The position numbers were made by a program. Below are positions 40,301-43,300 of a stretch of DNA of 64,000 nt, in pieces. Location: the NCBI RefSeq assembly GCF_016026235.1, contig NZ_CP065613.1. One strand, 5' to 3'. How positions within the stretch are numbered: position 1 is the stretch's first letter; each line of letters starts with the position of its first letter. The DNA comes from Escherichia coli. Lineage in GTDB: Bacteria > Pseudomonadota > Gammaproteobacteria > Enterobacterales > Enterobacteriaceae.

Positions 40301-43300
40301 GTCGCCGTGATTACCTGGTGCATCCTGTTATGGTCGCATTTTGGATAACCCTTCCAGATTTCGATAAATCTCTGGTTTATTGTGCAGTTTATGGTTCCAA
40401 AATCGCCTTTTGCTGTATATACTCACAGCATAACTGTATATACACCCAGGGGGCGGAATGAAAGCGTTAACGGCCAGGCAACAAGAGGTGTTTGATCTCA
40501 TCCGTGATCACATCAGCCAGACAGGTATGCCGCCGACGCGTGCGGAAATCGCGCAGCGTTTGGGGTTCCGTTCCCCAAACGCGGCTGAAGAACATCTGAA
40601 GGCGCTGGCACGCAAAGGCGTTATTGAAATTGTTTCCGGCGCATCACGCGGGATTCGTCTGTTGCAGGAAGAGGAAGAAGGGTTGCCGCTGGTAGGTCGT
40701 GTGGCTGCCGGTGAACCGCTTCTGGCGCAACAGCATATTGAAGGTCATTATCAGGTCGATCCTTCCTTGTTCAAGCCGAATGCTGATTTCCTGCTGCGCG
40801 TCAGCGGGATGTCGATGAAAGATATCGGCATTATGGATGGCGACTTGCTGGCAGTGCATAAAACTCAGGATGTACGTAACGGTCAGGTCGTTGTCGCACG
40901 TATTGATGACGAAGTTACCGTTAAGCGCCTGAAAAAACAGGGCAATAAAGTCGAACTGTTGCCAGAAAATAGCGAGTTTAAACCAATTGTCGTTGACCTT
41001 CGTCAGCAGAGCTTCACCATTGAAGGGCTGGCGGTTGGGGTTATTCGCAACGGCGACTGGCTGTAACATATCTCTGAGACCGCGATGCCGCCAGGCGTCG
41101 CGGTTTGTTTTTCATCTCTCTTCATCAGGCTTGTCTGCATGGCATTCCTCACTTCATCTGATAAAGCACTCTGGCATCTCGCCTTACCCATGATTTTCTC
41201 CAATATCACCGTTCCGTTGCTGGGACTGGTCGATACGGCGGTAATTGGTCATCTTGATAGCCCGGTTTATTTGGGCGGCGTGGCGGTTGGTGCAACGGCG
41301 ACCAGCTTTCTCTTTATGCTGTTGCTGTTTTTACGCATGAGCACCACCGGGCTGACTGCGCAGGCTTATGGTGCCAAAAATCCTCAGGCATTAGCCCGTG
41401 CGCTGGTGCAACCGTTGCTGTTGGCGTTGGGGGCTGGGGCGTTAATTGCGCTGCTGCGTACACCGATTATCGATCTGGCTCTGCATATTGTTGGCGGTAG
41501 TGAAGCAGTCCTGGAACAGGCGCGGCGCTTTCTTGAAATCCGCTGGTTAAGCGCTCCGGCGTCGCTGGCGAATCTGGTATTACTCGGTTGGTTACTCGGC
41601 GTGCAATATGCCCGTGCGCCAGTAATTTTGTTAGTGGTCGGTAATATCCTCAACATTGTGCTGGATGTCTGGCTGGTGATGGGGCTGCATATGAACGTGC
41701 AGGGCGCGGCGCTGGCGACGGTTATTGCGGAATATGCAACATTGCTGATTGGTCTGCTAATGGTGCGTAAAATCCTCAAACTACGCGGAATTTCCGGCGA
41801 AATGCTGAAAACTGCCTGGCGAGGAAACTTCCGTCGCTTGCTGGCGCTTAACCGCGATATCATGCTGCGTTCGCTGTTGTTGCAACTCTGTTTCGGCGCG
41901 ATCACCGTACTTGGCGCGCGACTGGGGAGTGACATTATCGCTGTAAACGCGGTTCTGATGACGCTACTCACCTTTACCGCCTATGCGCTGGATGGTTTTG
42001 CCTACGCGGTTGAAGCGCATTCCGGTCAGGCGTACGGTGCGCGCGACGGTAGCCAGTTGCTGGATGTCTGGCGGGCAGCGTGCCGCCAGTCGGGGATCGT
42101 AGCGTTGCTGTTTTCGGTGATCTATTTGCTGGCAGGGGAACACATCATTGCGTTGCTGACGTCGTTAACCCAGATTCAGCAGCTGGCCGACCGCTATCTT
42201 ATCTGGCAGGTGATTTTGCCGTTGGTTGGCGTCTGGTGTTATCTGCTGGACGGCATGTTTATAGGCGCAACGCGTGCCGCCGAAATGCGTAACAGTATGG
42301 CGGTGGCCGCCGCAGGTTTTGCGCTGACGCTCCTTACGCTGCCGTGGCTGGGTAATCATGGTTTGTGGTTGGCGTTAACCGTCTTTCTGGCGTTGCGCGG
42401 GCTTTCTCTGGCAGCTATCTGGCGGCGTCACTGGCGCAACGGTACCTGGTTTGCCGCAACGTGACGGTTAAAAATTCTGAATAAATAATCCTAAGCCAAA
42501 TTGCTGACTACACTTAATCTCACGTTCAGAAGAAAAGTGAACGTACTCTCATTCACAACCTAACGATGAGGTCTTGATTATGAATAAAGATGAAGCCGGC
42601 GGTAACTGGAAACAGTTTAAAGGTAAAGTGAAAGAGCAATGGGGCAAACTGACCGATGATGATATGACGATCATTGAAGGTAAACGTGATCAACTGGTCG
42701 GTAAAATCCAGGAACGTTATGGTTATCAGAAAGATCAGGCAGAAAAAGAGGTCGTGGATTGGGAAACCCGCAATGAATATCGCTGGTAATTAATCCCTCC
42801 TGCCCGACGTGTACAAGGATGTACGCTCTCTTAACGCGGTTTCTTTTTCACCTGCACAGAGTGATCATGCTGGCACTGTTCAGGATGACGACACGCTTCC
42901 ACTTCCATGCATGCCGCACAGAGCCCATGTGCTTCAATCACATTATGCCGCAGGGCAAACCCCATTTTTGCCGCCAGCGTATGCATGATGTCTTCCACGC
43001 CTTCTGCACATTCTTCTTTCACCGCGCCGCAGCGATCGCAAATAAACATAGCTGACGTATGGGTGGGCTGATCGAACAGATGGCAGAGCACATAACTGTT
43101 GGTGGATTCCACCTTATGCACAAAACCTTGCTCAAGCAGAAAATCCAGCGCGCGATAAACCGTTGGCGGCTTGGCTTGCGGTTCAGCTTCGCGCAGCAAA
43201 TCAAGCAGATCATAAGCGCTGATAGCGCCATCCTGCAGACTCATCAGGCGCAACACTTCCAGGCGCTGTGGGGTCAGGCGCACATTACGCTGCGCACAGA

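What the first reader, a model, noticed from the sequence alone, without database searches (positions are those of the whole stretch)
41066..41145. Annotated dinF start lies inside the lexA terminator-like hairpin
The first in-frame ATG of dinF (41085) is inside the hairpin accgcgatgccgccaggcgtcgcggt plus T-run that follows lexA, while a second ATG at 41139 precedes the conserved hydrophobic N-terminus (MAFLTSSDKALW...). The true initiation codon is ambiguous, and the hairpin could attenuate lexA-dinF read-through and occlude the upstream start.
Basis: seen in the sequence. Interest (0 to 1): 0.2.

Follow-up and report, generated by a model that had tools for sequence, protein, structure and literature searches.

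The report
lexA terminator hairpin; dinF start mis-annotated
The hairpin after E. coli lexA is a real, conserved terminator-type structure, and the ATG inside it is not the dinF start: comparative, ribosome-profiling and RefSeq evidence all place the start at the second ATG, so this is a known, ordinary annotation discrepancy.

Summary
The window is the E. coli plsB-dgkA-lexA-dinF-yjbJ-zur region. A 13-bp GC-rich hairpin (41077-41106, about -24 kcal/mol) with a U-tract lies 11-13 nt after the lexA stop, and the first in-frame ATG (41085) sits in its 5' arm. The K-12 reference record (NC_000913.3, b4044, 459 aa) starts dinF there.

The claim that the start is ambiguous does not hold. In the four PGAP-annotated E. 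coli genomes read in full, plus strain 43905 (IS200 case), dinF starts at 41139 (441 aa). All 79 species loci examined (Enterobacteriaceae and Erwiniaceae) have a start codon at the 41139-equivalent position. The upstream ATG is in frame and open only in E. coli and its closest clusters. It is followed by a TAA in E. whittamii and is frameshifted in E. albertii. Published tetracycline ribosome profiling (Nakahigashi 2016) found signal at +54 and none at the annotated start.

A strong hairpin of unrelated sequence follows lexA in nearly every genus. Published long-read data (Yan 2018) map a transcript end in the U-tract with partial read-through. Bicyclomycin data (Adams 2021) add Rho-dependent loss early in dinF.

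Verdict: already known and of low interest. Its use is as a correction to the K-12 record.

The parts
40413..40449 (+). Two LexA (SOS) boxes overlapping the lexA promoter: CTGTATATACTCACAG at 40413-40428 and CTGTATATACACCCAG at 40434-40449. The published TSS, MG1655 4257086, equals window 40429.
   Evidence: Read directly in the sequence. They match the established CTGT-N8-ACAG consensus (my own knowledge). The TSS comes from Yan 2018 Supplementary Data 1. Context only; not tested further.
40458..41066 (+). lexA coding sequence (202 aa), stop TAA at 41064-41066.
   Evidence: ORF list. Annotated as lexA in every E. coli record fetched. tblastn gives 91-100% identity in the related loci listed in the visible part of the output.
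41077..41106 (+). GC-rich stem-loop of the lexA 3' untranslated spacer. The core stem is 41079-41104 (11 pairs including one U.G), the loop is GCCA, and two weak pairs extend the base.
   Evidence: Terminator scan: 13 pairs, 8 G-C, loop of 4. Energies are -21.8 kcal/mol (core) and -23.8 kcal/mol (extended), with z = -3.4. Among 7 distinct Escherichia variants, 95.6% of cells are paired against 27-49% when the partner is slid. The two changes in the core stem both keep pairing, U.G to U-A and G-C to G.U. The weak G.U pair at the base of the extension (41078/41105) is lost in 4 of the 7 variants.
41104..41112 (+). U-tract (TTTGTTTTT) after the stem. The published transcript 3' end, MG1655 4257766, equals window 41109.
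   Evidence: Sequence. Yan 2018 SMRT-Cappable-seq lists a transcript from 4257086 to 4257766 covering b4043 only, typed 'novelTTS'.
41085..41087 (+). ATG1, the start of dinF in the K-12 reference annotation (459 aa). It is most likely not used and is simply part of the stem (A-U, U.G, G-C).
   Evidence: NC_000913.3 b4044. P(unpaired) is 0.001. TetRP signal is 0/0/0. ATG1 is followed by an in-frame TAA in E. whittamii and SCPM-O-B-8794, and is out of frame in E. albertii. An ATG at -54 is absent outside E. coli and its closest clusters.
41126..41129 (+). Weak Shine-Dalgarno-like CAGG within a conserved TCAGGCT motif, 9 nt before ATG2.
   Evidence: Anti-SD duplex energy is -2.5 kcal/mol, against -9.4 for lexA. 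TCAGG(C/T)T recurs 9-12 nt upstream of the start in Escherichia, Citrobacter, Salmonella, Klebsiella and Raoultella.
41139..42464 (+). dinF coding sequence as it should be drawn: 441 aa, a MATE-family transporter, start ATG2 at 41139-41141.
   Evidence: PGAP annotation. The Pfam MatE domain starts at residue 35 of the 459-aa form, which is residue 17 of the 441-aa form. A start codon is conserved at this position in 79 of 79 species loci. TetRP reports a new start at +54.
41110..41230 (+). C-rich, G-poor stretch covering the spacer and the first ~30 dinF codons. It is a candidate Rho-utilisation region, upstream of the published Rho termination region at MG1655 4257949 (window 41292).
   Evidence: The C/G ratio peaks at 2.08 in 78-nt windows starting at 41125-41150, against 0.5-0.9 in the flanks. 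Adams 2021 Supplementary file 2 gives Rho score 6.1, p = 5.6e-32. The rut assignment is inference.

Best explanation
The hairpin plus U-tract is the Rho-independent (intrinsic) terminator-type element of the lexA transcript. It lies in an untranslated 72-nt spacer between lexA and dinF.

dinF is translated from the second ATG (41139) to give a 441-aa MATE transporter. The ATG at 41085 is only part of the stem sequence. It happens to be in frame and open in E. coli, and that produced the 459-aa K-12 annotation.

Transcription from the LexA-repressed lexA promoter ends partly at the U-tract. Polymerases that read through enter dinF, which has a weak ribosome-binding site and a C-rich leader. Many of them are then stopped by Rho within the first few hundred nucleotides. 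Together these two steps keep DinF much lower than LexA while leaving both under SOS control.

Shown here or in cited data: the structure, its conservation, the conserved start position, the ribosome-profiling signal, the mapped 3' end, and the bicyclomycin effect. Inferred: how much attenuation each step contributes, the rut assignment, and the stoichiometric purpose.
For: Start codon:
- 79 of 79 species loci have a start codon at the ATG2-equivalent position: 66 exactly there, 13 one codon downstream; 78 ATG and 1 GTG. The N-terminus downstream of it is conserved.
- An in-frame ATG at -54 occurs only in E. coli and three near-E. coli clusters. Citrobacter and Salmonella have an in-frame stop 21 nt upstream of the start.
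- E. whittamii and SCPM-O-B-8794 have a TAA at codon 10 of the putative extension. E. albertii has a 1-nt loop deletion that puts ATG1 out of frame.
- ATG1 is base-paired, with P(unpaired) 0.001.
- Nakahigashi 2016 TetRP reports dinF with a new start at +54. Signal there is 0/24.9/10.5 and signal at the annotated start is 0/0/0, classed as '1. new site'.
- PGAP uses ATG2.

Terminator:
- The anatomy is canonical.
- 55 of 59 species with a spacer of <=100 nt have a hairpin of <= -14 kcal/mol starting 6-31 nt (median 12) after the lexA stop. 50 of these have a T-rich tail. The hairpin sequences are unrelated between genera.
- Spacer folding energy has median z = -3.6, and 52 of 59 fall below -2.
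- Yan 2018 lists a full-length primary transcript from TSS 4257086 to TTS 4257766. In M9 the reads are 10 at the TTS, 6 within 50 bp downstream and 20 passing through. In rich medium they are 22, 86 and 10. Size selection above 1 kb works against the 680-nt species.

Rho step:
- Adams 2021 places a Rho termination region at 4257949, inside dinF. Upstream/downstream reads are 322/54 untreated and 288/295 with bicyclomycin.
- A C/G peak lies just upstream of that region.
Against: - Adams 2021 Term-seq lists no dominant 3' end anywhere in 4257600-4257999 in three conditions.
- In the same study bicyclomycin restores downstream coverage to parity. On a rough uniform-coverage calculation of my own, that leaves little room (under about 20%) for Rho-independent termination at the hairpin under those conditions.
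- The ends mapped by Yan 2018 could therefore be partly exonuclease-trimmed products of Rho-terminated transcripts that stalled at the hairpin.
- TetRP signal for dinF is weak: it is present in 2 of 3 samples and the gene is expressed at a low level.
- No N-terminal peptide of DinF was found in the one N-terminomics supplement searched.
- The 54-nt extension is open in every E. coli sequence I read, so a minor long isoform is not formally excluded.
Confidence: 0.8

Rival explanations
1. The hairpin is mainly a 3'-end-protecting (stabiliser) stem-loop rather than a working intrinsic terminator. On this view RNA polymerase reads through it, Rho terminates in early dinF, and 3'-to-5' exonucleases trim back to the hairpin. 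That would create the lexA-only mRNA end seen at 41109 and just downstream.
For: - Bicyclomycin abolishes the lexA-to-dinF coverage drop: 322/54 becomes 288/295, Rho score 6.1.
- No dominant Term-seq peak appears at the hairpin.
- In rich medium most of the ends in Yan 2018 (86 reads) lie within 50 bp downstream of the called site rather than at it.
- Adams 2021 notes, citing earlier work, that Rho-terminated transcripts are typically processed by 3'-to-5' exonucleases.
Against: - The element has every sequence feature of an intrinsic terminator: an 11-13 bp GC stem, a tetraloop and 8 U in 9 nt.
- The mapped end lies within the U-tract, 5 nt after the stem.
- T-rich tails accompany the unrelated hairpins in 50 of 55 other species, which a pure stabiliser would not need.
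- The two roles are not mutually exclusive.
Confidence: 0.25
2. ATG1 (41085) is the genuine dinF start, or one of two starts, in E. coli. It would give a lineage-specific 18-residue N-terminal extension (MPPGVAVCFSSLFIRLVC). It might be used when the hairpin is opened, for example by ribosomes terminating at the nearby lexA stop.
For: - It is the longest ORF and the curated K-12 annotation.
- The 54-nt extension is in frame and free of stops in all E. coli sensu stricto sequences read.
- A weak GAG lies 5 nt upstream, with SD duplex energy -2.7 kcal/mol, no worse than at ATG2.
- The lexA stop is only 18 nt upstream.
Against: - TetRP signal is zero at this codon in three samples.
- The codon is buried in a stem of about -22 kcal/mol.
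- The extension is interrupted by a stop or a frameshift in the nearest sister species while the hairpin is kept.
- O157 carries a Pro-to-Leu change in the extension at a loop position.
- One E. coli strain has IS200C inserted between ATG1 and ATG2, and dinF is still called from ATG2.
- A ribosome on the lexA stop codon should reach only to about 41076-41078, short of the core stem. This rests on my knowledge of ribosome footprints.
Confidence: 0.05
3. The hairpin is a chance palindrome or a relic of a mobile repeat with no role in expression.
For: Citrobacter and Salmonella carry REP/BIME-like palindromes in the same spacer, so palindromic elements do colonise this site. The loose terminator scan finds 6 sites where 4.2 are expected by chance.
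Against: - A strong hairpin sits at the same position, 6-31 nt after the stop, in 55 of 59 short-spacer species despite complete sequence turnover. Folding z-scores have a median of -3.6.
- Substitutions in the core stem within Escherichia preserve pairing.
- A transcript end maps to its U-tract.
Confidence: 0.03

Closest known systems
Intra-operon partial intrinsic terminators (internal attenuators that set unequal expression of co-transcribed genes, e.g. in rpsU-dnaG-rpoD; read-through TTSs catalogued by Yan et al. 2018, PMC6131387)
   Same: There is a GC-rich stem, a tetraloop and a U-tract directly after the upstream gene's stop. A 3' end maps in the U-tract. A fraction of transcripts continues into the downstream gene, which has no promoter-like site of its own in the spacer.
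   Different: The termination efficiency is uncertain here, and much of the drop is bicyclomycin-sensitive, so Rho contributes. No antiterminator alternative structure was found. The rpsU-dnaG-rpoD comparison is from my own knowledge.
Mis-called bacterial start codons from the longest-ORF rule (the class re-annotated by Nakahigashi et al. 2016, PMC4909307, which lists alternative start sites for 154 E. coli K-12 genes)
   Same: The annotated start is the first in-frame ATG. The real start lies 54 nt downstream, has conserved sequence after it, and carries the profiling signal. dinF is row 113 of that paper's Table S2.
   Different: In this case the false start lies inside the upstream gene's terminator hairpin. 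That also made the lexA-dinF gap look like 18-19 bp, a figure later quoted as support for the operon (PMC4481165).
Rho-dependent intragenic termination (polarity) in poorly translated 5' regions (Adams et al. 2021, PMC7815308)
   Same: A Rho termination region is reported about 150 nt into dinF. It is preceded by a C-rich, G-poor stretch and a weak Shine-Dalgarno sequence.
   Different: It acts downstream of, and together with, an intrinsic-terminator-like hairpin. The rut site was not mapped.

Membership tests
Rho-independent (intrinsic) transcription terminator | GC-rich stem-loop with a short loop | tested here: met
   13 pairs (8 G-C), a 4-nt loop and -23.8 kcal/mol.
Rho-independent (intrinsic) transcription terminator | U-rich tract immediately 3' of the stem | tested here: met
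   TTTGTTTTT at 41104-41112, which is 8 T in 9 nt.
Rho-independent (intrinsic) transcription terminator | RNA 3' ends generated in the U-tract in vivo | tested here: inconclusive
   Yan 2018 lists a TTS at 4257766, equal to window 41109. Adams 2021 Term-seq lists no dominant end there. The published data disagree in sensitivity.
Rho-independent (intrinsic) transcription terminator | Termination independent of Rho (with purified RNA polymerase, or insensitive to bicyclomycin) | tested here: inconclusive
   Only indirect data exist. With bicyclomycin, downstream coverage equals upstream coverage (288/295), which argues for low intrinsic efficiency. No in vitro assay was found.
MATE family transporter DinF (start-site question) | MatE domains and a conserved N-terminus beginning at the true start | tested here: met
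   Pfam MatE E = 2e-44, with profile position 1 at residue 35 of the 459-aa form. Solved MATE structures align from residue 26-27. The start codon is conserved at the ATG2 position in 79 of 79 loci.
lexA-dinF operon (co-transcription from the lexA promoter) | Same strand, adjacent genes, no separate promoter, and read-through transcripts | tested here: met
   lexA lies directly upstream of dinF in all 79 loci that have flanking sequence. No promoter-like site is found in the spacer. Read-through reads from the lexA TSS are reported, 20 in M9 and 10 in rich medium. The operon is asserted in the literature.
Regulated attenuator (terminator/antiterminator switch) | A mutually exclusive alternative structure that sequesters the 5' arm of the terminator | tested here: not met
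   When the 3' arm is forbidden from pairing, the 5' arm stays essentially unpaired in the minimum-energy fold. No competing helix of comparable strength appears. Rfam finds nothing in 40300-41500.

The most novel reading that the evidence does not exclude
Read-through at the lexA hairpin may depend on growth condition. Yan 2018 read counts give about 56% passing through in M9 against about 8% in rich medium. If so, the hairpin together with Rho would form a tunable valve that uncouples DinF from LexA output according to growth or translation state. The stem begins only 11-13 nt from the lexA stop, at the edge of a terminating ribosome's footprint. A weaker variant of this reading is that E. 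coli alone makes a trace 459-aa DinF isoform from ATG1.
Probability: 0.1. Interest if true: 0.35.

Novelty: already known. Interest (0 to 1): 0.1.

Why it matters
The value is practical rather than conceptual. The reference E. coli K-12 record still draws dinF 54 nt too long. From memory, protein databases derived from that record also list 459 aa; I did not check this here.

The long call places the start inside the lexA terminator hairpin and makes the intergenic gap look like 18-19 bp. That figure has been quoted as evidence for the operon (PMC4481165).

Anyone cloning, tagging or modelling DinF, or designing lexA/dinF reporters, should use the 441-aa form. They should also treat the 72-nt spacer as a terminator-containing untranslated region.

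The locus illustrates a general trap. ATGs inside GC-rich terminator stems can extend the downstream ORF, and the Raoultella/Klebsiella hairpins here do the same thing.

Tried and rejected
- Literature searches for dinF together with terminator, start codon or ribosome profiling found nothing in main texts. The useful data were all in supplements.
- These supplements were not held or were empty: Meydan 2019 preprint and Dar & Sorek 2018. Meydan 2019 Mol Cell and Li 2014 Cell could not be found under the ids I tried, which were recalled from memory.
- The TRAINSPOTTER N-terminomics and INRI-seq supplements do not mention dinF, so there is no second independent start-site dataset.
- Rfam found no family in 40300-41500.
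- A search for an antiterminator alternative fold found none.
- Covariation within Escherichia is too shallow to prove the structure. No pair changes on both sides, and the shuffle control is uninformative. The stronger argument is hairpin turnover between genera.
- Searching E. coli genomes with the TAA-bearing variant (L008) matched only one genome at 94.6% identity, and the spacer of that genome has no TAA. So that variant lies outside this set of E. coli complete genomes.
- Pfam and PDB alignments do not discriminate between the two starts on their own, because MATE N-terminal tails vary in length.
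Full report
**Identity of the locus**

The window around the finding is the E. coli plsB-dgkA-lexA-dinF-yjbJ-zur region. A 1-kb query spanning lexA and the start of dinF matches 5425 of 5426 complete E. coli genomes at >=95% identity. lexA occupies 40458-41066 and ends in TAA at 41064-41066. Two LexA boxes can be read upstream, at 40413-40428 and 40434-40449.

**The observation**

- The stem ACCGCGATGCC/GGCGTCGCGGT (41079-41104) has a GCCA loop. It extends by two weak pairs to 41077-41106 and is followed by TTTGTTTTTC.
- The terminator scan reports 13 pairs, 8 of them G-C, with a 4-nt loop.
- The hairpin alone folds at -23.8 kcal/mol. The 91-nt region has z = -3.4 against dinucleotide shuffles.
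- ATG1 (41085) lies in the 5' arm. ATG2 (41139) is 54 nt downstream, in frame, with no intervening stop.

**What 'annotated' means here**
- The curated K-12 record NC_000913.3 starts dinF (b4044) at 4257742, which is ATG1. That gives 459 aa and puts the start 18 nt after lexA.
- NCBI's PGAP annotation starts dinF at the ATG2 position (441 aa) in the other E. coli genomes whose feature tables I read. These include O157 EDL933 and a strain with an IS200 insertion in the spacer.
- So the discrepancy is between one legacy record and the current automated annotation.

**Comparative test of the start codon**

A scan of one genome per species returned 80 loci from Enterobacteriaceae and Erwiniaceae. 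lexA sits directly upstream of dinF in all 79 that include the flank.
- Extrapolating the tblastn alignment to residue 1 of the 441-aa protein, 66 loci have a start codon exactly at the ATG2-equivalent position.
- The other 13, the Klebsiella/Raoultella group, have it one codon downstream, with an N-terminus one residue shorter (MLFNAADKALW...).
- 78 of these start codons are ATG and one is GTG. The sequence after the start is conserved: M-x-[FL]-[FL]-x-x-x-D-K-A-L-W-R-L-A.
- An in-frame, unblocked ATG at -54 exists only in E. coli and three near-E. coli species clusters. Citrobacter and Salmonella have an in-frame stop 21 nt upstream of the start.

Within Escherichia the hairpin, including its embedded ATG, is retained, but its reading frame is not.
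- E. whittamii and strain SCPM-O-B-8794 have TAA at codon 10 of the putative extension.
- E. albertii has a 1-nt deletion in the loop that puts ATG1 out of frame.
- One E. coli strain (43905) carries IS200C inserted in the U-tract between ATG1 and ATG2.

The ATG is therefore conserved as stem sequence, not as a start codon.

**Physical accessibility**

In the mRNA context ATG1 has P(unpaired) 0.001, against 0.66 for ATG2. Both have weak Shine-Dalgarno complementarity, -2.7 and -2.5 kcal/mol, compared with -9.4 for lexA. The weak CAGG lies within a TCAGGCT motif that recurs 9-12 nt upstream of the start in several genera.

**Experimental evidence on initiation**

- Nakahigashi et al. 2016 used tetracycline-inhibited ribosome profiling (PMC4909307). 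Table S2 row 113 lists dinF (ECK4036) with a new initiation site at shift +54, ATG.
- Signal at the new site is 0/24.9/10.5 in three samples, and 0/0/0 at the annotated start. After inspection it was classed '1. new site', with the new protein beginning MAFLTSSDKALWHLALPMIF.
- The signal is weak, as expected for an SOS gene in uninduced cells. I could not find a second dataset.

**The hairpin as a conserved feature**
- Among the 59 species whose lexA-dinF spacer is <=100 nt, 55 have a hairpin of <= -14 kcal/mol. It starts 6-31 nt (median 12) after the lexA stop and ends 19-45 nt (median 31) before the dinF start. 50 of these have a T-rich tail.
- The spacers fold far better than shuffles: median z = -3.6, with 52 of 59 below -2.
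- The hairpin sequences are unrelated between genera. This turnover with positional conservation is typical of terminators.
- In Citrobacter and Salmonella the spacer is expanded to 120-295 nt by REP/BIME-like palindromes.
- Within Escherichia the two substitutions in the core stem keep pairing, U.G to U-A and G-C to G.U. The remaining changes fall in the loop or, for the weak G.U pair at the base of the extension, break a pair that is absent in 4 of 7 variants. Pairing is 95.6% against 27-49% for slid controls. There is no double-sided covariation, so this small alignment proves little on its own.

**Experimental evidence on transcription**
- Yan et al. 2018 (SMRT-Cappable-seq, PMC6131387) list a full-length primary transcript from TSS 4257086 to TTS 4257766 that covers lexA only, typed 'novelTTS'. 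With the offset of 4,216,657 the end maps to window 41109, five nucleotides past the core stem and inside the U-tract.
- Reads at the TTS, within 50 bp downstream, and passing through are 10/6/20 in M9 and 22/86/10 in rich medium. Median read-through lengths are 568 and 1406 nt. Library size selection above 1 kb disfavours the 680-nt species.
- Adams et al. 2021 (PMC7815308) list no dominant Term-seq 3' end between 4257600 and 4257999 in three conditions.
- They do report a Rho termination region at 4257949 (window 41292) inside dinF. Reads in the 800-nt windows upstream/downstream are 322/54 untreated and 288/295 with bicyclomycin, Rho score 6.1, p = 5.6e-32.
- The stretch just upstream (about 41110-41230) is C-rich and G-poor, with C/G up to 2.08 against 0.5-0.9 nearby. 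That fits a rut-like region, but this assignment is inference.

**Synthesis**

The best-supported picture has four parts.
- lexA is followed by a 72-nt untranslated spacer that carries an intrinsic-terminator-type hairpin.
- Some transcripts end there and some read through.
- Those that read through meet a poorly translated, C-rich dinF leader where Rho removes many more.
- DinF is translated from ATG2.

The two published datasets disagree on how much of the drop is intrinsic and how much is Rho-dependent. On a rough uniform-coverage calculation, the bicyclomycin result leaves under about 20% for intrinsic termination in that experiment. The mapped ends could therefore be partly trimmed products of Rho termination that stalled at the hairpin. 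I carry that as the main rival for the hairpin's role (0.25); it does not exclude the intrinsic-terminator reading. I found no alternative antiterminator fold and no Rfam family, so there is no support for a riboswitch-like attenuator. Use of ATG1, alone or as a minor second start, is unlikely (0.05).

**Comparison with what is known, and novelty**

Each component is already documented.
- The lexA-dinF operon is established (Krueger 1983, as cited in PMC4481165 and PMC3327717).
- The corrected start is in Nakahigashi 2016 and in PGAP annotation.
- The transcript end is in Yan 2018.
- The Rho region is in Adams 2021.

The residue is an uncorrected start in the K-12 reference record. A knock-on effect is the '19 bp' lexA-dinF gap quoted as operon evidence. 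The finding is real but ordinary, and I score it low.

The least ordinary reading still open is condition-dependent read-through, about 56% in M9 against about 8% in rich medium on small read counts. That would make the spacer a tunable valve. I give it about 0.1.

Noticed in passing
L085 2551-3275 (E. coli strain 43905, NZ_CM135146.1); insertion point equals window 41109/41110: An IS200C element (tnpA annotated) is inserted inside the U-tract directly after the lexA hairpin. This is the same position as the transcript end mapped by Yan 2018. It separates ATG1 from dinF by about 710 bp. Two of 5425 genomes lack full coverage of this spacer.
   Followed up: partly
L010-L021, L018, L023, L046, L068 spacers between lexA stop and dinF start: In Citrobacter and Salmonella the lexA-dinF spacer is expanded to 120-295 nt by REP/BIME-like palindromes (gccggataaggcgtttacgcc...catccggc). 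C. koseri (L068) has about four copies. The short terminator hairpin seen in other genera is replaced or supplemented by these.
   Followed up: no
L026, L028-L030, L033, L042, L048, L074 (Raoultella/Klebsiella and allies), hairpin after lexA: Their unrelated hairpins (..ctgATGcATGATGctgcg..) also contain ATGs that are in frame with dinF and not separated from it by a stop. The same longest-ORF trap therefore exists there. Their true start is one codon downstream of the E. coli-equivalent position.
   Followed up: partly
window 40528 (MG1655 4257185), inside lexA, 70 nt into the ORF: Adams 2021 Term-seq lists the same 3' end here in at least two of its three condition tabs. It lies about 100 nt from the lexA TSS (window 40429). 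It is not Rho-dependent (score 0.73) and has a low intrinsic-terminator score (1.05), so its origin is unexplained. The octamer ATGCCGCC occurs both here (40527-40534) and in the hairpin (41085-41092).
   Followed up: no
window 41110-41230: A C-rich, G-poor stretch (C/G up to 2.08) spans the spacer and the first ~30 dinF codons. It lies just upstream of the published Rho termination region at window 41292.
   Followed up: partly
window about 42485 (MG1655 4259142), minus strand: Adams 2021 also lists a Rho termination region on the minus strand, labelled antisense to dinF (Rho score 5.8). This implies antisense transcription entering the dinF 3' end from the yjbJ/zur side.
   Followed up: no
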